Assembly (NCBI RefSeq): GCF_037042905.1
Contig: NC_087251.1
Location: 2,668,001 to 2,728,000, forward strand
Reading direction: 5' to 3'
DNA length: 60,000 nucleotides
Source of the DNA: Lytechinus pictus
Taxonomy: Eukaryota
Made by a program: the position numbers and the translations under genes. Positions 7,052-51,712 of this stretch are shown one piece after another. The notes beneath the pieces were generated by a model. The model saw only the letters and a program-made list of their open reading frames with translations, was not told the DNA's origin and did no database searches. Every line of letters starts with the position of its first letter. Position 1 is the stretch's first letter.

Positions 7052-8143
7052 TTAGAAACGTTGGTCTTCTTGGGAAATGCCTCTGAATATGGGTAAGCGT
7101 CCAAGCCTAGCCCCCACCGGACTAGCTGTAGGAGATGTTGAGGTCATGTTAGTGTCTGCTAAAGATTCAGGATCAGACAAGGATTCAGGTGGTGATGGTG
7201 GTCTGAAGTTGTTGGTTACAACATGCTCATCTACTGGGAAGAACACACTATTACTTCCTTGTTTACTGGCTAGACGTAGCACTGCGAGTTGCTCCAAATC
7301 ATCATTGATTGGTTGAAGTGGGATGAAAGGGGAAGATGGAGCAGCAGTGAATGCATTTTGCAGACTGGTAGGAGATAATGCAGAAGGAGAAAGAAGTGGT
7401 CCTACATCGTGCTGCATCTGACTCAGAGTCATAGCATTGTTGGTAAGCGTGGCAAGTAACTCATCTTGACTAAGAAGATCTATTGCTGGTGGTGGGGTGA
7501 GAGGAAGAGGGCTTTCACACATGGACATGGGTGGTGGTGTCAGATCACCACCCGCTGAACCAAGGGGTGCACTGGGGAAGTGCAGGAGCTTGGGCCTCTC
7601 GATTGTACGCTCGCGGCTAGATTTGCTTGATGGACCAGGCGATGATAATTTCCTCTCATCAGGATTGTGGATGAAATGACACCTAGGTCCATACGGGCAG
7701 AATCCAACAGTGTGGAAGGTGCGGCATAACTCTGTCTTGTACTTGGGATGTCGGGACAAGACTCGAAGTTCATGGATACCATGAGCAAATTGGCATTTGT
7801 CCCCGTATTTACAGGTGCCATTCTCTTCATAAGGCCTGCATAACTCCGTTTTATACCGACTCGAGTTCTGATTGCGGGTTTGGTTATTGCGATCGCTCTC
7901 ACTCAGAGCCCGGTCCCTTGGTTTGTTGTTGAGATTTTCCTTGTTGTATACCGCTTCCAACTGTTGTGTGAACAAGGAATTCCCATTGAGGTGGTTGGTG
8001 CTTATTGGACTTGTTGACCCAGTGGTTGCACTCGTGGAATGCCTTCGAAGAAGATGTGCTCCATTTGATCCATTTATAGGAGTTCCTACGGCCCGAGTGT
8101 CCCCTCTCAGCTGCGTTTTGGCATGTATCAATGACGACACATT
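7052..8143 (-). CDS. ZFP36L1: TIS11/ZFP36L-family tandem CCCH zinc-finger mRNA decay activator, exon 2 (main coding exon)
   Basis: Two CX8CX5CX3H fingers with RYKTELC and KYKTELC lead-ins. C-terminal GRLPIFRGIS matches the CNOT1-binding motif. Polypyrimidine tract plus CAG acceptor at 8144-8160 gives a phase-0 start AAT GTG (N-V), so the ORF-track GTG start is not the real start. Confidence 0.96.
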   Translation of the reverse strand, partial: NVSSLIHAKTQLRGDTRAVGTPINGSNGAHLLRRHSTSATTGSTSPISTNHLNGNSLFTQQLEAVYNKENLNNKPRDRALSESDRNNQTRNQNSSRYKTELCRPYEENGTCKYGDKCQFAHGIHELRVLSRHPKYKTELCRTFHTVGFCPYGPRCHFIHNPDERKLSSPGPSSKSSRERTIERPKLLHFPSAPLGSAGGDLTPPPMSMCESPLPLTPPPAIDLLSQDELLATLTNNAMTLSQMQHDVGPLLSPSALSPTSLQNAFTAAPSSPFIPLQPINDDLEQLAVLRLASKQGSNSVFFPVDEHVVTNNFRPPSPPESLSDPESLADTNMTSTSPTASPVGARLGRLPIFRGISQEDQRF

Positions 8144-8814
8144 CTGAAAACAGAAAAAAAAGACAAGACAAGATTAACAACAAGAACAAAGATGAAATTC
8201 ATAAGACCCTAGACTTGTTCAATAAAAACCTTGTGAACTCAATTGATTGCATTCAACATAGACGTCTATACTACTATAGATCTGGGCGTTGGGCCAGAGA
8301 CTGACAAGACTGAACCGAGTTTAATCATGATTGTGGTAAAATTGTACTAATCTAGCGTTTAAGTTAAAGAAATGCATAGGCTATGCGTCCAACAACAGTC
8401 TAGCCTTCGAACCAACTTTACTCTTTAGCCTAGGCTTAGTAGGCCTATACTAAGTATAATTATAATCTAACGTAAGACAAAAAATCTAAAATCCAAGTTT
8501 GAGCCAACTTCTTAAGACTAAGAAAAGTAAAACACAATATATAGGATATTGCTGACGTCGCAGGTACGAAACTCAATAGTGATCATAATGTAAACCAGGC
8601 TTCACAATTACAAGCATGTTACAAGATGAGGGGGAAAATGGCTTCACTGAGCCGAGCTGCACATAGCCACATTCAACAAGTGTGCAGCGCAGACATTCCA
8701 ACACACTGTGTAGCGTGGTGAAATTCACGCGAAATATTTATGCAGTGGCTAAGCCTAAGTTATTTGAAATCTACTGATATCTAATGAAAGCTACGAGGCA
8801 TTCTACAAAATTAC
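8144..8814 (-). other. Single phase-0 GT-AG intron of the TIS11/ZFP36L gene (671 bp)
   Basis: GTAA donor at 8814-8811 and TTTTCTGTTTTCAG acceptor ending at 8144. Same single early intron as vertebrate ZFP36-family genes. Confidence 0.9.
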
Positions 8815-8874
8815 CTTATGACTAAACAGCATATCTCCAACATCGTAAAAGGCTGATACCATTGCGGTGGACAT
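8815..8874 (-). CDS. ZFP36L1: TIS11/ZFP36L exon 1 coding part (MSTAMVSAFYDVGDMLFSHK)
   Basis: ATG at 8874, 20 codons ending AAG|GTAA donor at 8814. Resembles the conserved ZFP36L1/L2 N-terminus (MSTTLLSAFYD...). Joins exon 2 in frame, total 383 aa. Confidence 0.92.
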
Positions 8875-8949
8875 TTTTCAGGAGAAGATGCGAAGAAGCT
8901 AGAAAAACTTGGTTACACTAACTTCCCAGCGCTGTCGAACTCCTATTTC

Positions 8950-9500
8950 TACCTCTCCCCCAACTCGTGATATGCTGAAGTTCATAAAAAAAAACTGGTT
9001 GCGGTTTTTGCCAGCGAGATCAAGGGAAAACGCGTGCAGGGCTAGGGAGCTGGAGCAAGCTGAACGGGAGTCATTGAAAAAAGGCAGAAAAGAATAATAG
9101 TGGGCGGGGCTTACTGAGCACTCGCATTGTGGGCGTGTTTCACAATAAATTTTCGCAACTCACCCACAGCTTTGACAAAGTTAACATTCTGAAATGAAAT
9201 AAACCACACTGAAATGAAGTTCGCACTGTTCGTTTACTCTTTTTGAATGATTCAGTCGCATAGAGTATATATATTTTATTAAAAGAGTTGTAAAAAAATG
9301 AGCATTCTACATTGCCTTCTCAACAGTCACAATATTGCAGATAAACGGGCAGACAAAATTACTTCACACGTGGGCTGGGCTTCAACAGGTAGTCATGAAT
9401 ATTAATTTAAAATGTCCAATCAGCTACTTTGGTGCTACCAAATAAGAAGCATGACGTGTTTTCAGAATTTGTGATTGGTTTAGCAGTCGAGTGTACTAAG
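8950..9500 (-). promoter_or_regulatory. Probable proximal promoter of TIS11/ZFP36L
   Basis: Immediately upstream of exon 1. GC box GGGCGGGGC near 9102, CCAAT (plus-strand ATTGG near 9474), CRE-like TGACGT near 9452. Confidence 0.5.
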
Positions 9501-12500
9501 GGCATGCAGTGTATGGAGCTAGCAATGTGGCACAGTCGAAAGGGGAAAACTGCAGAAAAAAAGAAAGGAAAACATAAGTCGAGTCAGCGGCTTGTGCGAG
9601 TGACTTTTTTAAAGGGCGTAATCAAGCAAAGGTAAAGCCAGGGGATACGTCTCTGGGCGCCGGGCAGGCACAGTACACAATCTGATTCATGCTATCAAAC
9701 TTCGATATGTTAAACATTTGTCAGCATAATTATTCTTACGGTAATTTTTTCCTCACCAGTATATGGTATCATAACATTTTCAGACATTTTGGAAACATTG
9801 TTTTTATGTAGAATAAAACAGATGCATTGATGAGTAAAGAGGCTAGATCTATAGATCTGCGTAAATTCCTCTAAAGAAGTGGATATCAAAAAGAGGAGGG
9901 GGTTTAAAAAGATGCCTGTACACGTGGAACACATTTCTTAATGCAATTCTATCGTTTCGTAGATACTTTATTTTTAACTGATAGGCGATTTTTATTATAG
10001 GCTTAAACAACATCTCTTCTGTTCCTTGTTAACTTCTTTCCATTATCAACGTATTGTTATCTTACAGGCCTCATCCTTATCAAAGTAGAATAATAAGGGA
10101 CACGCATGTTGTCCAATGAAATAATCACATATAAAGCATAACTCATTGGAATTTTGTATTGGCAGTAAACATTGCTGCATAGGCAAAAGTTTTATGCACA
10201 GCCAAGAACGCGAAGCCAGGCAGGTGGTTTATCGTGATTCATTCGTGTAGTAGGACGAGATACAGTAAACAGACTACGTAATGCCATGCATGTAGCTGTT
10301 GGGAACCTGAACAACAAGACACAATGTGAGGGCGACATTTCGATTAGAGTCACGGATCAATTGTCTTTGAGAGAGTATACAGGCTTCTACAGTATTGCCT
10401 TGGATTGATCTCCTTATCCTAACAAAATGGGTAAAGAAAAAATGATGGCAATCCTCATTACTTTTTTTAAAAGAAATTGGAGGTCGGAGTATAGACTTGC
10501 CAAGTTCATTAAAAGTATTTTTTCACAAAATTTCTGATAAGTTATTTTGTACGTTTTTACTCCAGTGTTATTTATGTCTGTACGTAATAATAGTGGGTAG
10601 TGTGGCTATATGTTGTCTGTACTATAGGCTGTATACTTCAACATTTTAACTGATATCTTCACATTTTTGTTTCACTGTACATTATTTCTTGTATTGGTCG
10701 ATTTTTTTAAGTTCTACGTACCCTAAACAGTGCAAAGTTCAAAGTACCCTCGATATGTTAAACCACAGAAACCGCAAATATAAATCCGTGGTGAAATTAA
10801 CATACAGTATGTGGCGAAATCAACAACCAGCGTGCGTCTAAAGAATGCGCACATTCCGCGACCCATGTGTACTCTCGTTCTGAAACCTCCAGTGGTATAT
10901 CGGAATGAACGCGGCATGTATTTAAAAAAAAAAACACGTGGGTGCTTTCTGTTTGTGATTAAAACACAAACAAAGCTGCAAAGGGATCGCCGCTTTGCAA
11001 CAATTGATTAAAAAAAATTAAAAAGTCACATCCTATAGCGCTAAATGGAATAAAAAAAAAATATCCGGCAACGAAGTTGTGACATTTCATATTGTAAAAA
11101 GGCGCAGTGCTGAACGGGGCTGAAACGGACTTCGAATGAAACAAATTCCAGGCTTTGCACGATACGAGTATGCAGACATTTTCTATCTTCTTGCAGGGCC
11201 ACTTGTATGTGCATATCCCATGCAGGTAGATGTTGCTCATTTTAACTCCACAATTATCCAAACCAATCTGATGTTTGATACGGTACTATTAATTTTCAAT
11301 TCATTTTGATCTGAATTGCATCGATATCTTCATCATTTCCAACTTTCTTATTTTCCGTTGCAATACTGAACACGAATTGTAAACCATCTGGTCGGGGAAA
11401 CTTCCCGTTTCCCCGACATAGCAATAATTAATTTAGGCCTTAAACGTTATGATCGACATGCAGTTACTTTGATACAAAGGCATCATTCGTCTCATAATCA
11501 TGAAAATAGGCCAACTATTTTTTAATTAGCTTCAGTGCGATAGTGAAAGCCAAAGTTATAGCTTCTTCATAACATTTTTTTGAACAAAATTAATTTCAGA
11601 CTATAATGAGAAAAGTTTTCCAAAGAGAATCCCCCGAGTCTCCTTGTTTCCGCCGAGAACAATGTGTTCTGTTTTTTCATACATATATAATTGATTGGTC
11701 AACATTCATCGTGCCTGGTATACTGAGATAAGCAGATAGATCCCGTGAACTCCACCGGGAGATCTCCTGTTCAGACTCTTATCTCTCCATTTCACACGCA
11801 GATTTTGAGCGAGAAATGAAATGGACAAGAGATGGTTTGCGCGGGAAAACAGTCGTTTATTGGGATTCGATGCATAAGGTTGCTACTCTGGGAGAAAGTG
11901 GGTATTATTGTTTATACGATCTCAATCATACGTCGCAACGAATAGAGCTGTTGTAGATCAAAAGGCTGGAAAAGAACTTATCGGAATTTATTGGACGAGT
12001 GACGGAACGCTCGCTTGCCCCGTGACCGTCCCATGCTGGTATCGAGAGGATATGGCCCGCGACGTTGGTCGAAAGGGACAGCCGAGTGGAATATTGTTTA
12101 CTCAACCAGCTGCGATCGTCGAGGCACGTGCATGGCGGGAAATTTCATTTTAAGGCGCGCGCTTCGGGGCGCTTCTATACTCAACCTATGTATATTGGTT
12201 TTAACTGCCGAAGTCAGAAAACCTCGTTTTCTGTAAATCTCATCTTTATGTCTTTCCGAATCAATACATAAGTATTTCGCAATTAACATTTTGAATTTGT
12301 ACATAAAAGTGTAATTCTGCTTTCTATTACAGTAGGCCTAATATACGTTTAGAAGCTGTTAAATCCGTCCCATATTATTATTTTTTGTTTAATGTTACGC
12401 AATATAATTTTTTTTATGTATGCACCAAGAAATGTGGATTCACAATATTTTGAACCATTCTATGCGCTGGTATAAGGCCTACAATAGAGGGTGATAAGGC

Positions 12501-12995
12501 GCCCCGGGTAAGGATCATTATAATGTTTATGCACCTTAACACGGGTACAGTCTGAAGGAACATTTTCAGGTGAAAACGACAACCAAAAAATTGTGCCTTT
12601 TAACCGTTTTACTAAAGGTTAGAAGATAAGGCCCAAAGGAAGGTGGATCCAGTATCATTTAGGATGCAAACTTAAATCTTAGTGTGTGAATACAAAATGG
12701 ACAATAAGTACTACAGTTCCGCGTGGTTTCACAATTTCATAAATTATAACCTTTGTTTCTCACCCTTTCAACCTGCCTTCTCTCGTCTCCTTATGTCATT
12801 CATGATCTAATTTCATTTCCGCACTGGTTTTGTTTACAGCATTCCAATGGTTTTTTTTTTTTTTTTTTCATTCCACGACATCGACCATTATTTTAACTTC
12901 TGCCGCTGTTAAACCCTTGGTAAATTAGGTGCACCAATCAACGCAGAGTGCCCACGGGAATGTTTCAACCAGATATGGCCCTTTTTGGAGTATAC

Positions 12996-13610
12996 TTAAA
13001 GGACAAGTCCACCCCAACAAAAAATTGATTTGAATAAAAAGAGAAAAATCCAACAAGCGTAACACTGAAAATTTCATCAAAATCGGATGTAAAACAAGAA
13101 AGTTATGACATTTTAAAGTTTCGCTTATTTTCACAAAACAGTTATATGCACATCCTGGTTTGTATACAAATGAGGTGAGTGATGACGTCATCCACTCACT
13201 ATTTCTTTTGTATTTTATTATATGAAATATGAAATATTCTAATTTTCTTCTCATTGTCAAGTGAAACAGTGATTAATTCTTCTCTGAACATGTGGAGTTA
13301 GCAATGTTTAATACTATATGATTCAGTCAAATCGGTCCCTATGCATGGTCAAATCTGTAAAAAATGAAATATTGTATAATTCAAGCAATAAAAAACAAAA
13401 GAAATAGTGAGTGATGGACATCATCGACTGACTCATTTGCATGTCACTGAGTTGTGCATATCACTGTTTTGTGAAAAATGAGCGAAACTTTAAAATGTCA
13501 TAACTTCCTTATTTTTCATCCGATTTTGATGAAATTTTCAGTGTTATACTAGTTTGATTTTTCTCTATTTATTCAAATCAACATTTTGCTGGGGTGGACT
13601 TGACCTTTAA
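12996..13610. mobile_element. Kolobok-like MITE family A (TTAA|AGG...CCT|TTAA)
   Basis: TTAA flanks, TIR AGGACAAGTCCACCCCA / TGGGGTGGACTTGACCT, long imperfect internal palindrome. Related to copies at 21179 and 45089. Confidence 0.85.
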
Positions 13611-14366
13611 AAATATACATACACATACACATTAACGTTGTAAGCTCCTGAATGCGGAGGACCGTCGCCAAAATTCATTGGCAATCAAAGCATTATCATC
13701 AGCATTATTTTGTTACATTACTGAAGCCAATACGTGAAACTTTCAGATAATTTTTTTGTGGATGAGGCTTATTGGTCGGCATTTATTGGTCACGTGCAAC
13801 TACTGAACAGAATAGGATCAATGTGCACACCTATAATTATGAGTCCCTTGTGTTCCGGGCTTGTGTTGTCGCGTGCCTCATATCTTATCATACTTTATAA
13901 GCCTACGTGATGTGATCATAAGAGATAACAAAAATCACGACATATGGCTGCCTCTGTTTTTCATATTGCAAATTATTACTACTTTGAAATGTTATCAAGT
14001 CAGTCTCTTGTGATAAACGCAGTTTGCACGGAAAGGAAAATGAGCGGACCCCCCCCCCGAAAGTAAATCAAAACACAAAACAAAAACAAACATACATAAT
14101 ATATACGCTTCCACAAAATTATCATGCACACGAAACCAAACCAAAATAACCGTACAAGGTATATCAAAACTCTATACCAAAATGGAAAACCAAATCGTAC
14201 TGAGTTTGGAGACTGATGGTAAATTTTTGCCATGAGATTCAAGTTTCGAAAATAATTATATCGATAATGAAAAATAAAGAGCATAATTATTAATTCAGTA
14301 TGCAAATGCCAGAGATGTCTACCAAGGATAGGCTTATTCTGTTTGACTTGAGATCATCCTCGCTTA

Positions 14367-14536
14367 TACCTTGGTCACATTTGCTCTACGGCGGCCGACG
14401 GCGAGTCGAAAACAGCCGTTTTAATAATTTTAATTCAAAACACCTATATGTCTTGTATGTAGCTGGTACAAAAAATGTTAAAACGGCTGTTTTCGACTCG
14501 CCGTACGGCCGCCGTAGAGCAAATGTGACCAAGGTA
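14367..14536. mobile_element. Small hairpin MITE, PIF/Harbinger(Tourist)-like
   Basis: Near-perfect long TIR TACCTTGGTCACATTTGCTCTACGGCGGCCG with TTA duplicated on both flanks. Confidence 0.85.
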
Positions 14537-17500
14537 TTACTCTTCAACTTAGTGCCAGGGAGTAACCAAGGCTGACGGATGCATTTTTATTTGATCCAAT
14601 CAGCTCGTAACAAAAGACCAAGAAGCTAAAAGCGCGCCAAATTTATACAAGCGCGGGAGAAAGTGACAAAGGACGGGAAGGGTGATTCGAGTTATGATTT
14701 TGGAGTGAAAGTCAGCGATAGATAATGCAAGAGGTCTATTTAGCTGTTAAGCGAATACTTGGTCCTTTGATTTCATTTTAGTGCTAGATCACAATATTAC
14801 CAAAATGCACATAAAATATCCAAATTGAACTTGAAATCACCAAATCATAACAATCGCGATATTCGCCTTACGCCCCTTTTGGGGAATTGAATCGATATAA
14901 AAGCGTGTTCTTTGCTCTATCAGGGGCATAAAAAGCTAATATTCTTTTGAGGGGCATTTCAGTCAAATACTCTCCATCTCTTTCACAAATATTTTCGCAA
15001 TGTTCCAATTCAAGAAATATTTAGGTTACAGACATTTCATTCAATCGTTCTTTTTAATCGGTATAATCATTATAATATTATAAATATAAAAAACGGCATC
15101 GAATTTCACCATAATAATAAGCAGAATAAACATTACATCTGCTTGCATTGTTCATATTCCTCTTCATTAGATCCTGGCCTGTGTGTTTTATACACAAGAA
15201 ATGAATTGCAATTGTAAACGAACCAAATAATCTTCTTTTGAGAGCAGTATCATCTAAATGGTGCACTGAGATCATGCTGAACAGACAATAACAATGTTTA
15301 AAATATCTGGTAGACACTGGTACTTCGAGGTGCATCGTCATTTTTTTTCAATTAAAAACTACATGTATATTATGACAATTTCCAGAAGATTCACCATCAA
15401 AACAAAGAAACGTGCTTGTGAAAAGCACTTAGGTAATTTAATATTTCAAAATATACCCCGTACTCTTTTCACATCATTGCCCCTCAGAAGAATTCATGAA
15501 GACATGTTATTGTGTAGTCTTTGTTTATTCCTCCTGGCTCATTATTTCATAACTTACTTTCATATTTTGTTATCATGAATGTTTATATCAAAACAATCTG
15601 TACAATTCACTCATCATTCAATCTATTTGAAATACCTAGCCATTCATTTTATAAAAAGCTGACTTTGATTTTTTTGGGTGATATTTTGTAAAATATTTAT
15701 TTTTTCATCCATTTTACATTTTAATTCTTCAAATTTTAACGGGGGGGGGGGGGGTACAAAACAATGTAAATATTTTTGGATCTCTTATGATACTATCTTG
15801 ATAACTTTCATTACATATTTTTATAGAGTATATTGGTTTGCAAAAATGAGGGGAAAACAATTAAAAATATGGATGTCCTATTATCATCATTACTATTATT
15901 ATTATTACTATTAAGTATTATTATTATTATTATTATGTGTTGTTGAACAACCTGAAGTAAAATGAAAGACTATTCTGAAATAATCGTGGAAAGATTAAAA
16001 CTTAACTTTCAGTTAAATAAATATCAAGCTCTGTAAGCTCCCCATGTTTAAAATGCGTTGATATTCACTGTATATACTCCATGCAGTCAGTTTGAATCCA
16101 CAGCCCATAATAAATAGGATTTTTCATCCTAAAGCAACGATATGAAAATGAGAAAAACAACAACACATGTTTACAAAAGGTTTCTGGAATTGTTTTATTC
16201 ATTTTGATAAATATAGGATTACAAAGATATTATGACACGATTGATATAAAAAATTATCCAGTTTTTATAACAAAGAATAAATAGACTGGATGTCATGATA
16301 TTACTAATTAATTACACAGTAAAAAACAGCAAAATGTTTAAGTCTGTCACTCTAACAACAAGTTGTTTAAACTTTTTGCAATTGTTTAAACTTTTTAAAC
16401 TTGTTTAAAAAGTTTAAACAGTTGTTTAAAAAAGTTTAAACAGTAGTTGTTAGAGTGACAGGCTCAAGCAACATGCTTAAAATTTTAAACAGCGTTTAAT
16501 ACAATGATGCATCATTATACAAAGATAATTTATTCAGATTTATTCATAAATTAAGACATTCCATTTAATCCGTCAAATGACAGTCAGGCCATTAATCACT
16601 GACCACCGGATCCTATAAGACTTTTAATTTCAAAGACCTTAATAATGTGATAAACATAATTTTGGGGTCAACTTTCTGAAGTTGATTTTTTTTTTGCATA
16701 TTCTAAAAGCCTGTCATGAACTCTATTGAGTTACCTAATTCAAGATAAAAATTCATATTTTTTAAAAGAGTATATAATTATAGTGTAGAAACGATCCCTT
16801 TCTTTGATTTTACAAAGCGTTCTAAACTATCGTTTCTACACTATAATAGCAGTCTCCTGAATGGCGCGTATGGGTCCAGGACCTGACTTAGATGTTGCAC
16901 ATAATTCGTCAGTGCTTTGACAAACTGGCATAAACTGTGGTTTAGGCTGCTAAAAACTATGTGCATGATACGTGTGGTTTTACAAAGTGATCTTGTGTTT
17001 CGTAAAAATAAAATTTCTGGAAAAAGCTTCAGGACATTACAGATATTTCCTTTTATAGGATTACATGTATTTTAAAGTGCAATTTTTTTCTAATATTCAG
17101 TGCTACATTGATAACTGTAAACAGGTTTATATTAATATACCCTATTTTGCTGTGATCCCCCCAACTACATTAATAAACAGATAACGACTGATGGGGTGTG
17201 TAATATAAACATTCTTTGGACCGCCGGATTTATTTTCCCAAAAGCGCGTAGCACTTAGGAAAGATATGATCACGAGGGAAAATATAAATCCATCAGGTGG
17301 TCCAGAGAATGTTATTGTACACATTCCATCAGTCAATATCTGTTATATTAGATCGCCTTGAATGATGAAGATTGATCTAGATACAGATTGATCTAGGTCT
17401 ACGATGCATGCAGTAGATCTAGACTTATTCATGATATTCACAATGACTGATGGAACTGGTATAACTTTAGTCTAACATTAAGCACAGTGAATGACCCTTT

Positions 17501-19243
17501 TCTAATCAAAATCAAGTTTGTTTAGATCTAGAGTCCGTTCAGGTCCAGACTCCAGGACCCAATTAAGGCAGACTGAGAATGCATGTTGATCCATGATGAG
17601 GTGCACATTCTGATCTATCTTGGAAATGAGATAAAACATGACGAGGTTGAGATCTAGATTGGATCTATGTCAGACTACGTCGCAGCTGTAATGTTGGTGG
17701 TGTTCCTGATCTTTCTGTTGTCGAACCAGGTCCAGTACCGAATCTAACATTTCGTTAGCACTAGATCTAGTGACTAGATAGAGATTCTAACGTTAGCAAG
17801 ATTAGATTTCTCTAATGACTTAGACTCTAGTCTAGATCTAGATCTAACACGTAAAAAATTGAGACCTAACTTAAAGATCTAGGCCAAGGCCTAAATCCAG
17901 ATCTACTTACCCAACTTTTTCGTCTAAAAGCTGATCGCATTCCCAATTGGTCATCAACATCACAAATGTTTGACGTTAGACCAAAACTAAATAAAACGTA
18001 CATTAGATCTATCTGTTAAGCTTCAGTCTCTATCCGCTGAACTACGTTGGCTCCACTCAACAATACATATCCAGAAATTCTTAAATAAATCCCCCAGAAA
18101 CAATGGTTATTCCTGTCTACACAAATCTAGGCTCCATTTTAGTAACTGAAGTAAGCCTAAAGTTAGATCTAAAGTTAGATCTAACATTAAACCTAACTCG
18201 TAGTACGTTGGACTCACTCAAATTCCGCTATCCAGTCTGAAAATTGATTCCAATTGATAACAAGTGTTCATCGATTGCAAACGATCGCTACTTTAGTCCC
18301 ATATATGTTATTTCCGTGTAATTGGTTACATCTAGTACATGAGAGGTCGCCATACATGTAGAAAAATATATTCATGGACTGGCTGATCAATATATTAATC
18401 GAAGGTGCACCGGCTGGGAAAATACCATAGAGATGTATACTAATTACGCTAGTATATATCTCTATGGAAAATACAAAGATTTTGATCATATCACGTGAGG
18501 CGCTATGGATCAATTGTGCTTGGCTATCTGTCTTGGCTATCTAATATTGCACAATATTAACATTTCAAAGAATCTTCTGAAAGAAATGATAAACTTTATT
18601 GATACATTATTATACTGAAAAGAAGCAAATTTTCAGGACTTTTCTCTCAATGGGGTAGAAGTTTGAATAACCTTATAGTGTCCAAAGGTACCTGGATCAT
18701 ACCATGAACATACTAGCATCATGAATATGATAACCATATGAAATATGACAGATGCAATTCACCTCTTACAAATATAATTAGATTTACATTAATTGTTATA
18801 CGTGGGAAAGTCAGAGTACCATCAGGCATTGTCCTTGTCTAATTCCATATGAAGAATGAAAATGAATGCAATAATAAATCTATGGATCTGTAAATAAGAA
18901 AGGGACTAAAAAAAGGAATAACTCTTTTGAAGAATGTTTTGTCATGTAGTAAAAACTATGCTGTGATAGTGGTATAAATCTGGGAAAGCATAATAACCCC
19001 ATGAATGGTCAGCCGCTTCTACAATTGCGACATCTCCATTTTGTAAACGAATCACAAGATTCTAAATCTGCATTGAGTTAGAGAAAACAGTCTAATAAAA
19101 ATTGATTGCAGAGGTGGTGATGATAGTAAATGACACATCTATCAATGATGATGATAAACCCTGAATGACCTATTCGGGGTTTATCATCAAAACTTTCTTG
19201 ATTTAAAGATGGCAGATGGATCCATGGTTTAAAAACTTTAATG

Positions 19244-19910
19244 AAAACTTGGTTTGAGCTGAGATTGAAGATGGGAATGATGAAGAAAATGAAGCCAATC
19301 TTAGTTGGATCTAACTTTGTTTGAGCTGAAATTGAAGATAAGAAAGATGAAGAAAATGAAGCCAATCTTAGTTGGATCTAACTTTGTTTGAGCTGAGATT
19401 GAAGATGGGAATGATGAAGAAAATGAAGCCAATCTTAGTTGGATCTAACTTTGTTTGAGCTGAAATTGAAGATAAGAAAGATGAAGAAAATGAAGCCAAT
19501 CTTAGTTGGATCTAACTTTGTTTGAGCTGAGATTGAAGATGGGAAAGATGAAGATATGAAGCCAATCTTAGTTGGATCTAACTTTGTTTGAGCTGAAATT
19601 GAAGATAAGAAAGATGAAGAAAATGAAGCCAATCTTAGCTGGATCTAACTTTGTTTGAGCTGAGATTGAAGATGGGAAAGATGAAGAAAATGAAGCCAAT
19701 CTTAGCTGGATCTAACTTGGTTTGAGTTGGGATTGAAGATGGGATAGATGAAGATATGAAACCAATCTTAGCTGGATCTAACTTGGTTTGAGCTGGGATT
19801 GAAGATGGGATAGATGAAGATATGAAGCCAAACTTAGCTGGATCTAACTTTGTTTGAGCTGGGATTGAAGATGGGATAGATGAAGATATGAAACCAATCT
19901 TAGCTGGATC
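19244..19910. repeat. Minisatellite, about 10 units of 66-67 bp
   Basis: Unit TTGTTTGAGCTGAGATTGAAGATGGGAATGATGAAGAAAATGAAGCCAATCTTAGTTGGATCTAACT. GATCTAACT at 19308, 19375 and onward. Alternating variants on the left, 66-bp variants on the right. Confidence 0.95.
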
Positions 19911-19963
19911 TTTTCATTGTTGCTGTTGCCCTCTCCTTTATCAAACAAGCGATCTTCAAATTC
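19844..19963 (-). CDS. THADA: Probable terminal coding exon of THADA (thyroid adenoma-associated / tRNA methyltransferase regulator)
   Basis: Strong acceptor TTTTTGTTTTTTGTCTTTGCAG ending at 19964, then EFEDRLFDKGEGNSNNEKIQLRLVSYLHLSHLQSQLKQS*. This resembles the human THADA C-terminal motif EEDYLFEKAEVNFWAETL..KYL as recalled. Position and strand relative to ZFP36L match the vertebrate THADA-ZFP36L2 arrangement. Candidate poly(A) signal at 18595-18600. Confidence 0.62.
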   Translation of the reverse strand, partial: EFEDRLFDKGEGNSNNEKIQLRLVSYLHLSHLQSQLKQS

Positions 19964-21178
19964 CTGCAAAGACAAAAAACAAAAATAAATATTAAAAATA
20001 TAAAAGCATGCAACAATTAATAATTCTACACAAATAAGAGAAAACACCCCTCCATGACCCCTCTCCCCAGGCCACCATAGCATGAGCAGTATGAATGCAG
20101 AGGCCTTAAGTGGAAGTGCATTGCCATTACATGTATACAATATGAACATTTCAAAATGCTCTACCATCGCAAAGTCAGCATAAATGAGCCCTTAGTTACT
20201 CAGTTCATTGAGAGTTGAGCAGACATCACTTGACATTTTAAACATACATATTAAAAACAGGATATTCCCATACTACTTCAGACCATTGCATCTCACTATG
20301 TTCTGATGTATCTCATCATAAAGGTGACATCCTTTCATGGGCACATAAACTTGTATAGGAATTTGAATGCAAAAAAATGTGCAGGAATCATTGGCAGGCC
20401 TATATCTAATGGTCATGGCCATATTGCACTATGGCAAGAACCAACTAAGAAACCCCTCTCACATGACACACCTTATAATGAAGTATAAGAGATAGTGAGG
20501 GGGCTGTATCATCGGTTTTATTATTTCTTGTGAAAATATCAAGTACAACTTTAAAATGTAAGAAAAAAAAAATTACATATGAATTTTGTGAAGTTTTGAT
20601 GGAATTCATTTATTTGAATTTATTCACATGAACCCACTGTTGGGTTGTATTTGGCATTTAAACCAGATTATCTGTCACCATATCAGAGGCAAGAATCAAG
20701 ACTAGATCCTGCCCATCAGTTATACCCCTCACTATAAATAGTATTAACTTAAATAACCAGTTAAATGTCAGCCTGGAATTAAAGCTAGGCATATTTTGTC
20801 CTTTTGGAAATTTTGTACTGTGTGTTTGTATCTCATCTACCAGAAAATGAAGGTCAACATTGTACTTTTCGCTGATATGCCAACAAAATAAGTGGCACTC
20901 GGCTGGTGGTTTCGCCTGCATTATGCATAAGAAAAGCGGTCTTCATTGGACTTCCAAACAAATCATTTCAAAATGACCCCTTACATTTTGTATTTTCCTT
21001 TAAAAACACTCAACTGAAATTTCATTTTATCCAAAATATTTATAAATCAAAGTTTGTATCGATTCTATAGTTCACATGAGTATAAAATATCTTGGGATAC
21101 ATTATGACCTCTGTGACATTTGACCTTAATACCCAATAACTCGTCAGATCATCATCACCCCTATAGTATGGACCAAAT

Positions 21179-21782
21179 TTAAAGGACAAGTCCACCCCAA
21201 CAAAAAGTTGATTTGAATAAAAAGAGAAAAATCCAACGAGCATAACACTGAAAATTTCATCAAAATCGGATGTAAAATAAGAAAGTTATGATATTTTAAA
21301 GTTTTTCTTAGTTTCACATGATAGTTATAATGCACATCCCGGTCGGTATGCAAATGAGGGAACTGATGACATCACTCACTCACTTTTTCTTTTGTATTTT
21401 ATTATAAGAAATATTCTAATTTTCTCCTCATTGTCCTGTGAAACAAAGTTTGATTCCTCACTGAACATGTAGAATTACCATTGTTTAACATTATATATAT
21501 GGTTCAGTCAAGTTGGTCCTTAATGTCAAATCTGTAAAAAAATTGAAATATTGTATAATTCAAACAATAAAAAACAAAAGAAAAAGTGAGTGAGGGACAT
21601 CATCGATTCTCTCATTTGCATGTGACTAAATTGTGCATATAACTATTTTATGAAAAATAAGCGAAATTTTACAATGTCATATATTTTACATCCGATTTTG
21701 ATGAAATTTTCAGCATTATGCTTGTCTAATTTCCCTCTTTTGATTCAAATCAACATTTTTATGAGGTGGACTTGACCTTTAA
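21179..21782. mobile_element. Kolobok-like MITE family A
   Basis: Same TIR and body as the 12996 copy, TTAA flanks. Confidence 0.85.
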
Positions 21783-21897
21783 AGTTGAGCTGTGGAGTGG
21801 TTCTTTAGTTGTGAAAACGAGACAGATTGATGGGCGAAAGACCTGAAAAGATAATGCCTCTGGCACTGCCAGTGGTGGACATTTGCATTAATTACAC

Positions 21898-22488
21898 TTA
21901 AAGGAGAATGAAACTCTTGGAGCAAGTTAGCTTTTGTGAAAGCAGAAAAATCAAAGAATAAGATCAACAAAACTTTGAGTAAAATAGGACTAGCAATAAA
22001 AGAGTTATGAGCATTTGAATGTCGAGATCACTAATGCTATGGAGATCCTCCCATTGGCAATGCGACCAAGATCTGTGATGTCACACACGTACAACTCTCC
22101 CATTTGGACACTGAAAATATACCCCAAAACATCTCTTTTTGCTCATTCTAATCATATGACAAACGATTCATCAATGATATAATGTTGTGAAACCTCTGTA
22201 CTTGTCATCTCATAAAGAGAACACCTCACCTTGTGATAGACTCTATAAAAGTGAGAATATAAGTTAAATAAGTACTAAAGTAATGAGGGAGTTGTACATG
22301 TGTGATATCACAGATCTTGGTCGCATTGCCGATGGGAGGATCTACATGGCACTAGTGATCTCAATATTCAAATGCTCATAACTTTCTTATTATTCATTCA
22401 ATCTTCCTCAAACTTTCAACAATATGTTTCTTTGATTTTTCTCTTTGATATGGATTCAGCTGGTTTCAAGGGTTTCATTCTCCTTTAA
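21898..22488. mobile_element. Kolobok-like MITE family B
   Basis: TTAA|AGGAGAATGAAAC...GTTTCATTCTCCT|TTAA, with internal inverted arms (GGCAATGCGACCAAGATCTGTGAT / ATCACAGATCTTGGTCGCATTGCC). Confidence 0.85.
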
Positions 22489-24499
22489 TCACTATGATAT
22501 GTGTAAAATTTTAAATGTATAACAATATCATTATTAACAATCAAGTCACACATGGTCAAATGATAAATTAGTGCATAGTTTAATTGATTTTCTTCCCATA
22601 AAATTCATCCAGGAAACAGGCAGAATTAGCAAGAAAACATTAAATTGTTTCCCCTGAGAGCGATAAATGACTGTAAAAAATATGAAAATAGATTTTAAGT
22701 ATAGAGTTCAATAATGATAACAGCCAACCAGCTGATCATTCCTCCAAGTTCAGCTCCAAATCAGACCTATAAGAAACTAAAATAGACCCAAAGGACTTCT
22801 GGGAGTGAATTTCCCAGGATACGAAAATCTGGATAAAAAAAAAACCTGAAATCTATCCTTGGCCATGAATCAACCCAGTTGGTAAACCCATTTACATGTC
22901 TAAACAATTGTAAAGTCAAAGCTAGGTTGAAAACAATACATTATCTTATACTACCACCTGATGAAACGTCATATGCTGCCAAAAACACATCAATTCTCTT
23001 TTTGTTTTCTCTTTCAGAGAAGGCATACTAAACCTGTATTTAGAATTCTTCTTCAATTCTGTATTGAAAGTCTAACCACCTGTGCTTTGAGAGGACAATA
23101 TTCACAAGGGAATAATTCCTAAGAGTTTTACATGCTTATTAGTTTAATCGTTTTTTTTTTCTTTGAATGTAGGAATGCCTGTAAGAAATCAGAAGATAGA
23201 CAATCCATAATACCATTCACACGGATGCTGGTGATGAGGACTAATGCTTTACCAATGGTTAGTCTAAATAAAAAGAGCAATATTTCAATTCATATGTAGT
23301 AACATGCAGACATTGTATGATTTAATATGCATCATAGGGTGTGTTTATCTTCCTAGACAGAATCAGCGTTTTCAAACGTCGTTTCAAAACACCGATCGCA
23401 AACGTGGTTCTGGAGGTGCTGTTTATGCTTTATTTTTCAGAGGCAAAATCACGATCTGCAGCTGGCTTTGCATCATAATTTTCATTGAGCAGGAAAGCGA
23501 GGTCAAATGGTGCACCCTTTTTCGAAAGGTTTTTTCCGAGTGTTGTTATGGTCGACTTTCGAACAATTTTCAATCTTTAAGTAATTGCATGAAGCTACTT
23601 AACATAGCTATAGAATTTTCACCATGGTGAGGATAATAGTAAGATAAAATAAAGAATATTAAAGTATACATAAGAAAATAATAAGACATCTATTTGTTTA
23701 TGCTACTTGGGCTTTTGGCTCAGTGATGTCTCCTCATCATAACTCATGTTCCGTTTTTTGTGTAAATCTAAATTAGAGGAATAGTAATAGTGATAGTATT
23801 TAACTTAATAATCATACATCAAAGAGAGATGAGAGGTAATGCAGTAGAGGTAAGTCCCTGTTATAACCATGCGACTGTATTTGCCCGCGGATTTTCATCT
23901 CACCGGAAGCATGTACCAAATGACGTCATTTAAACACGTTTACGATCGCGGTGCTGTTTATACTTCCCCAGAAAACCTGATTCTGGTCAAATGACATTTA
24001 GAAACGCACCTTTTTTGTAAGTTTACGATCGGCATTCTGAAAAGTCGTTTAAATGAAAGAAGAAGAAGATGTCCGACTGGAGAGATCGACTGGAGAGATC
24101 GAGAAAGACCAGCTAATCCCAAAGACTAAAGTCATAGATATATTTAACATTTTTATACTATGTAAATCATCATTTTTACATTAGTTGCCGTCACAATGAA
24201 CAGAATGCGGTAAGATACTGTTGAATTCGTCTGTGCTTGTTGTCAATTTCTTAGAAGAGACTTCAATTTTTATCGTATGGTCCCACGTACTGAATTCTAT
24301 GTGACTGTACAACAGTGCACAGAGCGCGGAGAACGAGTACAAGCAAACTGCACACGTACATGTACCGTATGTGCACATTGTATTTGTAGGCTATCAATGC
24401 CTAGACTCTATGCCTACACTTTAGTGTAGTCAGACGGTAGCATACATTACTTGTTAATCTGATTTACATCATTATCACTCTGAATTTAGCTACTTTATC

Positions 24500-25303
24500 A
24501 TGGCTGGCACTAAAAACTTTACCAAAATGCTTAAGGATATATTGTCAAGTGAGGAATTCCTCACTGCCATTGCAGAAGCTGTGGAGAACCAGTTGAAACC
24601 ATCTCTGGATAGACTTTGCAAATCCGAAAGCAACATGTCTGATCTTGAAGCAACTTCGAGAAGATCTGAAAAGCTTCTGCGGGATATGAAATCAGATCTC
24701 GATCGCAAATCTTCAAACCTGAACTCCATGAATGAGAAGCTTGAATCGCTGATGATGGATGTCAAGAATCTATCCGATTCCAACGCCCAAAAACTAGCTG
24801 CACTTGAGAGTCAACTAGAGCTAAAATCCAACACCATCAACCGACTGCAACATGATGTCAACGATTTGGAGCAGTATTCGCGAAGAACTTCCATTCGCAT
24901 CTTCGGTGTTAAGGAAAAGCAGAATGAAGTTACCGATGACATTGTGATTTCTATCGCTAACAAGATGGGAATTGACCTTCGCCTTGAGCAGATCGATCGT
25001 TCACATCGCGTTGGAAAGCGTCATCAAGACAAAAAGAAGAATCGTGGAATCATTGCGAAGCTCTGCTCTTATCGTGTTCGTCAAATGCTGATAAAAAGCC
25101 GAAGTCGACTCAAAGGTACAGGAATCGCAGTATATGAAGACTTGACATCAAAGAACTTTGATCTTCTACACACAACACAGACCTGTGATAAAATTCAAGC
25201 TGCATGGTCATCCGATGGCCACATATTTGCACTGACTACAAAGAGTAATGGCAGTACAGCCAAGCACTTCATACATTGTAAAGAAGATTTGCTGAAGTTA
25301 TAA
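24500..25303 (+). CDS. LINE ORF1p (coiled coil plus L1-ORF1/Transposase_22-like RRM region)
   Basis: 267 aa. N-terminal heptad coiled coil, then LEQYSRR..IRIFGV.E, IDRSHRVG, IIAKL and EDLT motifs typical of this ORF1 class. Confidence 0.88.
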   Translation: MAGTKNFTKMLKDILSSEEFLTAIAEAVENQLKPSLDRLCKSESNMSDLEATSRRSEKLLRDMKSDLDRKSSNLNSMNEKLESLMMDVKNLSDSNAQKLAALESQLELKSNTINRLQHDVNDLEQYSRRTSIRIFGVKEKQNEVTDDIVISIANKMGIDLRLEQIDRSHRVGKRHQDKKKNRGIIAKLCSYRVRQMLIKSRSRLKGTGIAVYEDLTSKNFDLLHTTQTCDKIQAAWSSDGHIFALTTKSNGSTAKHFIHCKEDLLKL

Positions 25304-25678
25304 TCTACATGTATCAGGGGTCAGTGCAATTTACAAACTGTTTTCATCTAGCAAGAAAAACTGTTCAGATGGCATATTCACCATATTGTTTCAACCAATA
25401 CTCATTTACCCTAGTGTTCATACATTTATCTTGGATTTTAAAAGTTTTTTTTTGTTTTTTTGTTTTTGTTTTTTTGGTTATTTACTACTTTGTATCTAGA
25501 GTTACATTCAAATTCCCCATTTTTTATTGTATTTTGCCGTATTTAATGCATCTTTATTATTCATTTTACTCGACAGGCAATTCAATGTACATTTCTATAC
25601 AAACTGTTATTATAGGTCACAGCTTTTTTGTGAGCCAGGCAAGGTTGAGCTTTGTACAATTACCTATACATATTCTTG

Positions 25679-28618
25679 ATGGACGATGTCCCTATTAAAT
25701 GCTTAGATTCATCATATTATGAATTAAAAGACTTACCTTTGTGCAATACTTCATCTTTATCCTTTATGCATTGTAACATGAGAAGTCTTAAGAAGAATAT
25801 TGATAAACTCCATGCATGTGTAACAAATATAAATACTAATTTCTCTGTTATAGGGATAAGTGAAACATGGTTGAAAGATAATGAAAATTTATTACCAGTG
25901 TTCAGTTTAAATGGTTACAATTTTGTGAACAAAGGAAGAAAGGATCGAGCTGGTGGTGGTGTTGGTTTTTTCATTAATGATACATTGAATTATAAAATAC
26001 GTACTGACTTAAATTTATTTGTTAACGAAGTTGAAACATTATTTATTGAACTGAAGTTTAATAAACATAATGTTATTGTGGGCATTATTTATAGACCACC
26101 ATCTCAGTCAATACTTTCTTTTAAAGAATATATTGAACCAATGCTTTTTCAAATTGTTAATGAAAACAAATCCTGTTACATAATGGGAGATTTTAACATT
26201 GATCATTTTTTACACGATTCGTTACAGTCATCTGAACTTCTACAATTTATGAGTTCATATGCATTTACACCTGTTATTAGTAAACCCACCAGAGTCACGA
26301 TCGAAACTTCTACTTTGTTAGACAATATTTTTGTAAATGATTTTAATAATATTTCTTTGTCTGGTATTATAACATACCCGATAAGTGATCACATGCCCAT
26401 ATTTAGTTATACACTGTCTGATATTGATTCACCAGGGAAAAAATCATATCGCTCATCACCAAGGGTTAGAGTTATTAATGAAGAAAATATTTTATCATTT
26501 TGTTCTTCATTGCAGGACATCAATTGGAATACCGTACTTGTTGATTCCTCTAACAATCTTGATGTAAACAATATGTACGATGCATTTATGAATGTATTCA
26601 GTAGATTGTATAATACACATTTTCCTAAGCTTGAATATAAAGAAAACAAAATAAAAAGGAACCCCTGGTATAATAAATCCTTGAAAATGCTTTGTCGTAA
26701 AAAGAATTCCCTTTACCACAAGTTTATTAAAAATCCAACATCATACAGAGAAATTGTTTATAAAAAGCAACGGAATATTGTAAATTCTGCTATTAGAAAA
26801 GCTAAAAGAGATTATTATGAAAGAAAGTTTGGTTCAGTTAAAAACGATTTAAAGGGAACTTGGAAGGTAATTAATAATGTTTTGAAAAACAAAAAGAAAC
26901 CTGAATTCCCATCTCTGATGGTTGACAATACTTGTTTAACAGAACCTTGTGATATTTTGTTGCATTTTAATCAATATTTTGTTTCTATCGGAGATGGTAT
27001 TCTTGATACCATACCTCTTTGTAACAAGAATCCATCAGACTTTTTAAGTACTGTTTACCCACATTCATTTTTTTGTACAGCCATATCTGAAGCTGATGTT
27101 ATAAATGCTGTATTGGGATTAAAAGATGGCAAGAGCCCAGGGCATGATGAAATCGATAGCAGAGTTTTAAAAAAGTCAATTCATGTAATAGCTCCAGTAC
27201 TGTCACATATATTTAATATTTCCATTGAAACTGGGTGCTTTCCAGAATCTTTGAAAACAGCCAAAGTCTTGCCTTTATTTAAAAAAGGAGATAAACATTT
27301 GTGTACAAACTATCGTCCAGTTTCACTTTTATCTATTTTCTCAAAGGTATTTGAAAAATTAGTTTATAACAAACTAATGTCCTTCATAAACAAACATAAT
27401 ATATTATACAATAAACAATTTGGATTTCGATCCGGACATTCTACATGCATGGCTCTGTTGGAATTTATTGAAAATCTCAATACAGCATTTGAAAACAAAA
27501 ACATTGGATTGGGTATATTTCTGGACTTGTCAAAAGCTTTTGACTCAATAAATCACAAAGTTCTATTATATAAACTTCATCATTATGGTATAAGAGGTAC
27601 TTTTTTAGAATGGTTTAAGAGTTATTTGAGTAACAGACAACAGTTTGTATCCATCAATGGTATAAATTCTCCATTACTGCAAATAAACACAGGCGTGCCG
27701 CAAGGTTCAATCCTCGGCCCCTTGTTATTTTTATTATATATCAATGATGTCCAATATGTTAGTCACCAACTGTGCCCTATTATTTTTGCAGATGATACAA
27801 GTTTTTTTTTGTCAGGTAAAAGTATTGTCGATTTAAATTCTATCCTGAATGTAGAAATACCTAGGATCGAAGAGTGGTTTCTTGTAAATAAGTTGGTTAT
27901 TAACTCTTCTAAGACAAATTATATGATATTCAAAACAAAAAATAAGAAACTTCTTGACAATCTTAGTGATATCTACTTAAACGATAAAAACATATTACAA
28001 GTTTCTACAATTAATTTTCTTGGAATCACTCTTGATGAAAACCTGTCATGGTCTTCTCATGTAAATGTAATTTTACAAAAAATATCTTGTGCTATTGGTG
28101 TTATATTTAGAATAAGACATTTCATACCACGTCAAATTCTATTATACATTTATAATGCAACAATTTTACCACATTTATCTTACTGCACAATGACTTGGGG
28201 TAGCTGTGCTCAAACACATTTAAATAGAGTCTTTGTCTTACAGAAGAGAGCATTAAGAGCAATTAATAACTCCAACCCTAGAACACCATCTGGACCTTTA
28301 TTCTATAAGTTTAAAGTTCTTAAAATTTTTGATATTTACAATTTACAAATAGCATCTTTTATGTATATGTTTGAGCACCAGTTGCTTCCTCCTATATTCA
28401 CAAAATACTTTAAATTGACTTCAAATGTCCATTCATATTCAACAAGACAATCCAGTGATTTATATTTACCTTTGTTGAATTATGAATCTTCTAGAAATTC
28501 TGTAAAATATGCTGGAGTTATTTTATGGAACAAAATACCTAAAGAAATAAAAAGATGCCCATCTCTTGCCTCTTTCAAAAACAGATATAAAAAATTCCTT
28601 ATTGATGCCTATAAATAA
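25679..28618 (+). CDS. LINE ORF2p: APE endonuclease plus reverse transcriptase
   Basis: Uninterrupted ORF, first ATG at 25679. APE motifs ISETWL, IYRPP, IMGDFN, SDHMP. RT motifs NYRPVSLL, FLDLSKAFD, GVPQGSILGPLLF, FADD. CR1/L2-type C-terminus LWNKIP...SFK. Confidence 0.96.
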   Translation: MDDVPIKCLDSSYYELKDLPLCNTSSLSFMHCNMRSLKKNIDKLHACVTNINTNFSVIGISETWLKDNENLLPVFSLNGYNFVNKGRKDRAGGGVGFFINDTLNYKIRTDLNLFVNEVETLFIELKFNKHNVIVGIIYRPPSQSILSFKEYIEPMLFQIVNENKSCYIMGDFNIDHFLHDSLQSSELLQFMSSYAFTPVISKPTRVTIETSTLLDNIFVNDFNNISLSGIITYPISDHMPIFSYTLSDIDSPGKKSYRSSPRVRVINEENILSFCSSLQDINWNTVLVDSSNNLDVNNMYDAFMNVFSRLYNTHFPKLEYKENKIKRNPWYNKSLKMLCRKKNSLYHKFIKNPTSYREIVYKKQRNIVNSAIRKAKRDYYERKFGSVKNDLKGTWKVINNVLKNKKKPEFPSLMVDNTCLTEPCDILLHFNQYFVSIGDGILDTIPLCNKNPSDFLSTVYPHSFFCTAISEADVINAVLGLKDGKSPGHDEIDSRVLKKSIHVIAPVLSHIFNISIETGCFPESLKTAKVLPLFKKGDKHLCTNYRPVSLLSIFSKVFEKLVYNKLMSFINKHNILYNKQFGFRSGHSTCMALLEFIENLNTAFENKNIGLGIFLDLSKAFDSINHKVLLYKLHHYGIRGTFLEWFKSYLSNRQQFVSINGINSPLLQINTGVPQGSILGPLLFLLYINDVQYVSHQLCPIIFADDTSFFLSGKSIVDLNSILNVEIPRIEEWFLVNKLVINSSKTNYMIFKTKNKKLLDNLSDIYLNDKNILQVSTINFLGITLDENLSWSSHVNVILQKISCAIGVIFRIRHFIPRQILLYIYNATILPHLSYCTMTWGSCAQTHLNRVFVLQKRALRAINNSNPRTPSGPLFYKFKVLKIFDIYNLQIASFMYMFEHQLLPPIFTKYFKLTSNVHSYSTRQSSDLYLPLLNYESSRNSVKYAGVILWNKIPKEIKRCPSLASFKNRYKKFLIDAYK

Positions 28619-34030: not shown

Positions 34031-34117
34031 TAATTCATGTCCTACTAAAATGTCTATTTTAATTCATGTCCTACTAAAATGTCTATTTTAATTCATGTCC
34101 TACTAAAATGTCTATTT
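34031..34117. repeat. 29-bp tandem repeat x3
   Basis: TAATTCATGTCCTACTAAAATGTCTATTT at 34031, 34060 and 34089. Confidence 0.92.
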
Positions 34118-35853: not shown

Positions 35854-35883
35854 GAAGGTAAATTATCTCAAGGTGCCTTCTAA

Positions 35884-51672: not shown

Positions 51673-51712
51673 GGCATGTTACCTATGACCACAGAGTCTG
51701 CACTATATTAGA

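What the first reader, a model, noticed from the sequence alone, without database searches (positions are those of the whole stretch)
7052..19963. Probable ancient THADA-TIS11/ZFP36L microsynteny in an invertebrate
Seen: a clean minus-strand splice acceptor at 19964 followed by EFEDRLFDKGEGN..., about 11 kb upstream of and co-oriented with the TIS11 gene. Known: human THADA ends just upstream of ZFP36L2 on the same strand and has a C-terminal EEDYLFEKAEVN motif. Inference: the gene pair predates vertebrates. It may be a genomic regulatory block in which THADA introns carry TIS11 enhancers. ORF callers miss this exon.
Basis: partly seen in the sequence, partly recalled or inferred. Interest (0 to 1): 0.72.

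Follow-up and report, generated by a model that had tools for sequence, protein, structure and literature searches.

The report
Sea urchin THADA–ZFP36 gene neighbourhood
A sea urchin gene for the mRNA-decay factor TIS11/ZFP36L has, 11 kb upstream, what is probably the last exon of THADA, the same neighbour it has in humans, but this old pairing is already listed in a published catalogue of ancient regulatory blocks.

Summary
The features are there. A two-exon TIS11/ZFP36L gene lies at 8874-7052 (minus); exon 2 is identical to the Lytechinus pictus RefSeq protein. A strong acceptor (AG 19965-19964) opens a 39-codon phase-0 frame, EFEDRLFDKGEGN..., 11 kb upstream on the same strand. Of 95 acceptor-like sites it gives by far the best match to the quoted human THADA motif (31 vs 19). 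Public contigs cover its bin and hardly the flanking unique intron. THADA identity is likely (~0.85) but not shown: the motif is recalled, five database searches with the peptide found nothing, no other THADA exon is in the window, and no splice junction was seen. The evolutionary claim is already published: Touceda-Suárez 2020, Table S1, lists ZFP36L2=THADA as an ancient regulatory block from the Irimia 2012 set, kept in three non-vertebrates. My decoding of its key includes S. purpuratus. Enhancers in the urchin intron were not tested. A side feature: a 10-copy 66/67-bp minisatellite is built from the exon's last 21 codons. The scan's index held no earlier THADA note.

The parts
7052..8143 (-). 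TIS11/ZFP36L exon 2 CDS: tandem CCCH zinc fingers, Tis11B_N part, C-terminal RLPIF tail (its role as the NOT1-binding motif is recalled)
   Evidence: Pfam zf-CCCH E 1.4e-20, Tis11B_N E 1.9e-5; 363 of 363 identical to L. pictus XP_054759127.2, 339 of 363 to S. purpuratus XP_782811.1
8144..8814 (-). TIS11 phase-0 intron, GT...AG
   Evidence: urchin-like contig L001 aligns in two pieces, ending at 8815 and resuming at about 8145; a single phase-0 intron is described as ancestral in PMC3546996 (passages)
8815..8874 (-). TIS11 exon 1 CDS, 20 codons
   Evidence: same 20 residues as the N-termini of P0001, P0121 and P0122
8875..19243 (.). Interval between the two genes: TIS11 5' region, repeats, candidate THADA 3' UTR; polyA-signal candidates at 19242 (ATTAAA) and 18600 (AATAAA)
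   Evidence: no Pfam family at E<=0.01 in the minus-strand ORFs of 33 aa or more here; plus-strand ORFs were listed but not scanned; hexamers
19246..19911 (-). 10-copy minisatellite of 66/67 bp. Unit 1 is the last 21 codons of the putative exon; the TAG stop forms at the unit 1/unit 2 junction
   Evidence: TRF period 67 x 10, 93% matches; unit starts 19910, 19844, 19778, 19712, 19645...; alignment 92% identity
19844..19963 (-). Putative terminal coding exon of THADA/Trm732: 39 codons plus stop, phase 0
   Evidence: contig depth 50/222/91 in bin 19845-19996 against 0/0/3.1 in the next bin
19964..20025 (-). 3' splice site: AG at 19965-19964, polypyrimidine tract, 62-nt AG-free zone
19964..60000 (-). 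Inferred last intron of THADA, over 40 kb, running out of the window; holds a LINE and several high-copy short repeats
   Evidence: no THADA-family Pfam hit in any of 392 minus-strand ORFs of 33 aa or more between 8902 and 59829; intron status is inferred
24458..28618 (+). Non-LTR retrotransposon (ORF1 coiled coil; ORF2 endonuclease and reverse transcriptase, open for 989 aa), antisense to the putative host intron
   Evidence: RVT_1 E 1.5e-32, Exo_endo_phos

Best explanation
The exon at 19963-19844 is the last coding exon of the sea urchin THADA gene (partner of the FTSJ1 tRNA Nm32 methyltransferase). It is spliced to upstream exons beyond 60000 across an intron of over 40 kb, and its transcript ends several kb upstream of the co-oriented TIS11/ZFP36L gene. 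This is the echinoid copy of the catalogued ZFP36L2=THADA block. The likely reason the pair stays linked is that TIS11 enhancers lie in THADA's long 3' introns, so a break between the genes is selected against. Shown: TIS11 structure, the acceptor, the frame, orientation, distance and the published listing. Inferred: THADA identity (~0.85), use of the splice site, and enhancers in the urchin intron (~0.6).
For: Best motif score after any of 95 acceptor-like sites, 31 vs 19. Acceptor among the top 17 of 6358 AGs. A loose motif pattern hit only this site in 398,801 bases of window plus 79 TIS11 loci (pattern designed after seeing the site). Contig depth 50.2, 221.6 and 91 on the exon bin, while the seven following bins (19997-21060) are zero in 6 of 7 (X18), 7 of 7 (X1) and 5 of 7 (X17). 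PMC7530604 Table S1 lists the pair as an ancient GRB in 3 non-vertebrates; Table S3 gives 4,228 bp between the human genes. Key GRS=10001100 shares slots 1 and 6 with HEY2=HDDC2 (11001101); these are the slots missing from HEY1=MRPS28 (01001001), for which the legend says no data were available for S. purpuratus or L. gigantea. So slots 1 and 6 are probably these two species (my inference). Long bystander introns are a GRB prediction (PMC3514665 section 8). In human, THADA-intronic SNPs are reported to influence ZFP36L2 levels (PMC8886408 passage).
Against: No THADA sequence could be retrieved, so homology was never aligned. The peptide found nothing in Pfam, PDB sequences, 1.84 billion representatives at E<=0.001, or 5.8 billion proteins up to 2000 aa (a THADA longer than 2000 aa could not appear). 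An equal motif score occurs by chance at 33849. No joint or loose end at 19963 among the rows shown; 490 joints and 2568 loose ends were hidden behind repeat reads. The covered bin contains minisatellite unit 1, so depth may come from the array; the three contig runs are not on record as RNA; raw reads of the related species gave depth of only 1.9 and 0.88. The frame stops 26 codons after the motif, shorter than the human C-terminus as I recall it. Two human enhancers I read about lie outside THADA: one downstream of ZFP36L2 (PMC12707995) and one listed as intergenic (PMC12628035).
Confidence: 0.8

Rival explanations
1. THADA is next to TIS11 as proposed, but the linkage in sea urchin is passive: slow rearrangement, or constraints confined to the 11-kb intergenic stretch, with no TIS11 enhancers inside THADA introns.
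For: No enhancer or conserved non-coding element was tested or found here. Much of the inferred intron is repeat-derived. ZFP36L2 is an RNA-binding protein that entered the GRB list through a Gene Ontology filter (methods). Human enhancers with evidence lie on the other side of ZFP36L2. The pair is absent from 5 of 8 non-vertebrates in the key.
Against: Pairs shared by four lineages arise by chance at under 0.0002 per pair (PMC3514665). The last intron is very long, and THADA-intronic SNPs are tied to ZFP36L2 expression.
Confidence: 0.3
2. The exon is a THADA remnant or a non-functional copy (eroded bystander, partial duplicate, or an allele damaged by the minisatellite), with the working THADA 3' end elsewhere.
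For: Short frame after the motif and a tandem array starting inside it; no other THADA exon in 40 kb; no protein-database hit. Bystander exon erosion is a documented fate (PMC7530604).
Against: The acceptor is intact and strong. The last repeat unit also runs into a stop two codons further on, so the array did not remove a long tail. The bin is covered in 4 of 4 runs laid.
Confidence: 0.08
3. The resemblance is chance: a T-rich tract ending in CAG, followed by a peptide that happens to resemble a 12-residue recalled motif, or an exon of an unrelated or non-coding transcript.
For: An equal score appears at 33849. All database searches were blank. The motif was not verified against a real THADA.
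Against: Joint acceptor-plus-motif chance about 0.005-0.03, on the strand and side predicted by a published conserved pair.
Confidence: 0.08

Closest known systems
GRB 62 / pair 124 ZFP36L2=THADA (Touceda-Suárez et al. 2020, PMC7530604, Table S1; source set Irimia et al. 2012, PMC3514665)
   Same: Same two gene families and the same proposed roles (ZFP36 target, THADA bystander); conserved in 3 non-vertebrate species; human gap 4,228 bp against about 11 kb from stop to start here.
   Different: The table names no species in words, gives no exon-level map and no enhancer test for this pair in the rows I saw. The Lytechinus locus, the intron of over 40 kb and the minisatellite do not appear in what I read.
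TIS11/ZFP36 (tristetraprolin) family, single invertebrate member
   Same: Two exons, phase-0 intron, tandem CCCH fingers in exon 2.
   Different: Nothing notable; exon 2 is identical to the annotated L. pictus protein.
THADA / yeast Trm732, partner of FTSJ1/Trm7 (PDB 8Y2O, PMC12145424)
   Same: The peptide after the acceptor resembles the C-terminal motif quoted in the finding (score 31).
   Different: Only 39 residues are in the window; DUF2428 and the repeat body are not. The C-terminus looks shorter than in human (recalled) and ends in a coding-derived minisatellite.
Tested ancient GRBs Islet-Scaper and Otx-Ehbp1
   Same: Same proposed logic: enhancers of one gene in the long introns of a neighbour.
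   Different: Those have 4C and transgenic evidence; this locus has none.

Membership tests
TIS11/ZFP36 family | Tandem C-x8-C-x5-C-x3-H zinc fingers | tested here: met
   PF00642, two stretches, E 1.4e-20
TIS11/ZFP36 family | Two exons, phase-0 intron, fingers in exon 2; orthology to annotated members | tested here: met
   PMC3546996 passages
THADA/Trm732 | Significant sequence similarity to a real THADA protein | tested here: inconclusive
   no hit; only a match to the recalled 12-residue motif; 39 aa is near or below the reach of these searches, and proteins over 2000 aa were outside
THADA/Trm732 | DUF2428 and repeat domains on upstream exons, same strand | tested here: inconclusive
   none in 392 of 392 minus-strand ORFs of 33 aa or more in the window; no sequence beyond 60000 is held
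THADA/Trm732 | Acceptor used in spliced mRNA | tested here: inconclusive
   coverage on the exon bin, little on the flank, no junction shown
Genomic regulatory block | Target gene linked to an unrelated bystander across distant lineages | tested here: met
   published for the pair; here conditional on the THADA identity. No THADA-family hit in 150 of 245 upstream ORFs from four non-urchin TIS11 loci (flanks 2.5-10 kb, uninformative)
Genomic regulatory block | Very long bystander introns | tested here: inconclusive
   over 40 kb with no detected THADA exon; short or diverged exons could be missed
Genomic regulatory block | Conserved non-coding elements in bystander introns | not testable with these tools
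   no second echinoid genome could be read
Genomic regulatory block | Intronic enhancers that contact and drive the target gene | not testable with these tools
   needs ATAC-seq, 4C and reporters; human hints only

The most novel reading that the evidence does not exclude
The echinoid THADA last intron has grown beyond 40 kb as the working enhancer field of the single TIS11 gene, in the same position as the human THADA-intronic variants tied to ZFP36L2 expression. THADA's coding end has meanwhile become short and seeded a minisatellite from its last 21 codons. The sea urchin embryo would then be a one-copy, pre-duplication system in which to test whether the bystander introns, not the THADA protein, carry the conserved function of the locus.
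Probability: 0.35. Interest if true: 0.4.

Novelty: already known. Interest (0 to 1): 0.17.

Why it matters
If right, it adds an exon-level sea urchin example to a pair already catalogued as an ancient regulatory block. It also supports reading human trait variants inside THADA introns as possible ZFP36L2 regulators. It is confirmatory. The practical value is a defined intron in a tractable embryo for enhancer tests, and an exon to check in the gene annotation.

Tried and rejected
Whole-genome search beyond the window: no genome is held, and the metagenome loci lie in no held record. Exon peptide against Pfam (0 families), PDB sequences (0), ESM Atlas twice (no usable hit), 5.8 billion proteins (no candidate; 71-2000 and 203-2000 aa only), 1.84 billion representatives (0). 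Sequencing runs: no RNA holder listed. Read laying was swamped by high-copy repeats at about 21180-22560 and 23340-24060, so junction rows for 19963 could not be seen. TIS11 loci from metagenomes (79 loci): mostly short; 150 of 245 upstream ORFs scanned, from L023, L051, L033 and part of L048, with no THADA family. Degenerate motif scans of viral (15 stretches) and prokaryotic contigs (89) to fish out a THADA query: the 19 contexts printed looked like chance matches and were not scanned against Pfam. The 0-of-100 shuffle result is set aside as circular, since the pattern came from this site. Rfam: 0 matches. Main-text searches THADA+ZFP36L2+synteny and THADA+TIS11 gave 0 papers; THADA+ZFP36+invertebrate gave 1 unrelated review; THADA+sea urchin gave 16, none on this topic by title. 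The prior report was found only in a supplement. Supplements of PMC4729200 had no hit in 2 files. No THADA alignment text was found in the supplements of PMC12145424 (11 files, one unreadable). Supplements of PMC3514665 and PMC9088939 could not be read; the former would name the three species. Rejected: the exon as an alternative first coding exon of TIS11, since I saw no good donor before its stop (by eye). The 33849 match was rejected: wrong strand and no pyrimidine tract.
Full report
1. Observation. The window is AT-rich eukaryotic DNA (GC 0.30-0.41) with two long coding features: a TIS11/ZFP36L gene on the minus strand and a LINE at 24458-28618 on the plus strand. TIS11 exon 1 (8874-8815) encodes the same 20 residues as the sea urchin proteins. 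Exon 2 (8143-7052) is 363 of 363 identical to Lytechinus pictus XP_054759127.2, 361 to L. variegatus and 339 to S. purpuratus. An urchin-like contig (L001) aligns in two pieces that skip the intron. So 'invertebrate' is a camarodont sea urchin, most likely L. pictus.

The acceptor is as described: AG at 19965-19964, 83% pyrimidines, a 62-nt AG-free zone, among the best 17 of 6358 AGs. It opens a phase-0 frame of 39 codons ending at TAG 19846-19844, 10,970 bases upstream of the TIS11 ATG and co-oriented. Its first units are 66 bp and in frame, most later ones 67 bp. Unit 1 is the exon's last 21 codons, and the stop is made at the junction with unit 2. The last unit runs into a stop two codons further on, so the array seems to have grown from the coding end rather than cut off a long tail.

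2. Is it THADA? I could not obtain a THADA sequence from any tool, so the test used the 12-residue motif quoted in the finding, which is recalled and unverified. Over all six frames this site scores 31, a plus-strand site at 33849 scores 32, the next 23; 2 of 300 shuffles reached 32, and the best of 79 control loci was 26. The motif alone is therefore not decisive. Restricted to the 30 bases after acceptor-like sites, it ranks first of 95 (next 19) and first of 22 strong sites (next 9); the background rate of such scores is about 5e-6 per position, which I turn into a joint chance of roughly 0.005-0.03. From recall, with no call behind it, the spacing of residues after the motif also fits human and plant THADA. 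Against: blank results in Pfam, PDB, and both large protein collections; the word-based searches stopped at 2000 aa, near the length I recall for THADA. No other THADA exon was detected: none of 392 minus-strand ORFs of 33 aa or more between 8902 and 59829 hit a THADA family, and none of the frames after good acceptors looked like one (by eye). If the exon is THADA's last, the intron exceeds 40 kb.

Expression. I laid four runs on 19845-24400. The bin 19845-19996 had contig depth 50.2 (X18), 221.6 (X1) and 91 (X17), and raw-read depth 1.9 and 0.88 in a related species (X20). The next bin had 0, 0, 3.08 and 0.01; most unique intron bins were zero. That is the pattern of an exon. However, the bin includes repeat unit 1, the contig runs are not on record as RNA, and high-copy repeats filled the tables: no joint or loose end at 19963 was among the rows shown (490 and 2568 hidden). 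Splicing into 19963 is neither shown nor refuted.

3. How it most likely works. THADA is the large partner of FTSJ1 for tRNA Nm32 methylation (PMC12145424, abstract and passages) and has no evident functional link to an mRNA-decay factor. The most likely arrangement is a bystander block: THADA is transcribed toward TIS11 and ends several kb before its promoter, and its long 3' introns carry TIS11 enhancers, so breaks between the genes are costly. Shown: order, orientation, distance, acceptor. Inferred: identity (~0.85), intron length, enhancers (~0.6). Human evidence is mixed. THADA-intronic SNPs are reported to influence ZFP36L2 levels (PMC8886408, passages), but a CRISPRi-tested ZFP36L2 enhancer lies downstream of the gene (PMC12707995, passages) and the leukaemia-hijacked 2p21 enhancer is listed as intergenic (PMC12628035, passages). 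PMC12361435 (passages) added nothing. Rivals: passive linkage (0.3, compatible with the THADA identity), remnant or damaged copy (0.08), chance (0.08).

4. Comparison with what is known. PMC7530604 (main text parts 1-4 of 5, supplement rows and part 3 read) catalogues 156 regulatory-block pairs present in the chordate ancestor. Row 63 of Table S1 is ZFP36L2=THADA, with THADA as bystander, three non-vertebrate species and key GRS=10001100, meaning that it comes from Irimia 2012. That paper (PMC3514665; introduction, first part of the results, section 8 and methods read; supplements not available) required linkage in four lineages and placed 593 of 595 pairs at the origin of Bilateria. The species order of the key is not given in what I could read. 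Comparing HEY1=MRPS28 (01001001) and HEY2=HDDC2 (11001101) with the legend of Fig. S2 suggests that slots 2, 5 and 8 are amphioxus, Capitella and Trichoplax, and slots 1 and 6 are S. purpuratus and Lottia. The THADA key has slots 1, 5 and 6, so the pair was probably already scored in a sea urchin and a mollusc. This decoding is my inference. PMC3546996 (passages) covers the ancestral two-exon structure and vertebrate synteny, with no mention of THADA in its main text.

5. Novelty. The central claim is already known. What I did not find in print is the exon-level Lytechinus map, the very long last intron and the coding-derived minisatellite; supplements that I could not see may hold the first. 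These are details. The scan's earlier notes held no THADA finding.

6. Verdict. Observation partly confirmed; interpretation probably right but published. Novelty: already known. Interest 0.17. Most novel open reading: a working TIS11 enhancer field in the giant intron together with a shortened THADA end (probability 0.35, interest 0.4).

Noticed in passing
window 19246-19911 (-): Minisatellite whose unit is the last 21 codons of the putative exon. The junction of units 1 and 2 makes the stop; later units alternate between two variants. Five of its units carry acceptor-like CAG sites as strong as the main one.
   Followed up: partly
window 24458-28618 (+): Apparently intact two-ORF non-LTR retrotransposon (281 and 989 aa stop to stop) followed by short tandem repeats near 28873-28906; clade not determined.
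   Followed up: partly
window 12996-13611, 21179-21783, 45089-45671, 51070-51684, 56094-56704, 29424-30034, 52300-52851: Copies of roughly 600-bp elements that match themselves in reverse orientation (MITE-like); the 21179 copy has very high depth in all four runs.
   Followed up: no
window 19150-19188 (-): Perfect 12-bp inverted repeat with a 15-nt loop just past the minisatellite, in the candidate 3' UTR (read).
   Followed up: no
window 8617 (-), TIS11 intron: RefSeq lists a 365-aa L. pictus isoform X2 that starts with two other residues before exon 2; an ATG-CTT-GT at about 8617 inside the intron fits as its alternative first exon.
   Followed up: partly
window 5936-7051 (-): TIS11 3' UTR aligns to two other urchin-like contigs (L001 to 6667, L002 to 5936) and holds many AU-rich motifs, as expected if the gene regulates its own mRNA.
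   Followed up: no
window 33849-33884 (+): Chance-level match to the quoted THADA motif (score 32) with no acceptor; a useful internal control.
   Followed up: yes
L023:9611-9751 and L033:2960-3100: Weak Tis11B_N hits mark a separate first exon in two non-urchin TIS11 loci, in line with the ancestral two-exon structure.
   Followed up: no
window 54141-54357 and 59474-59855: GAT/GAC-rich 12-bp tandem array and a 163-bp tandem repeat in the inferred intron.
   Followed up: no
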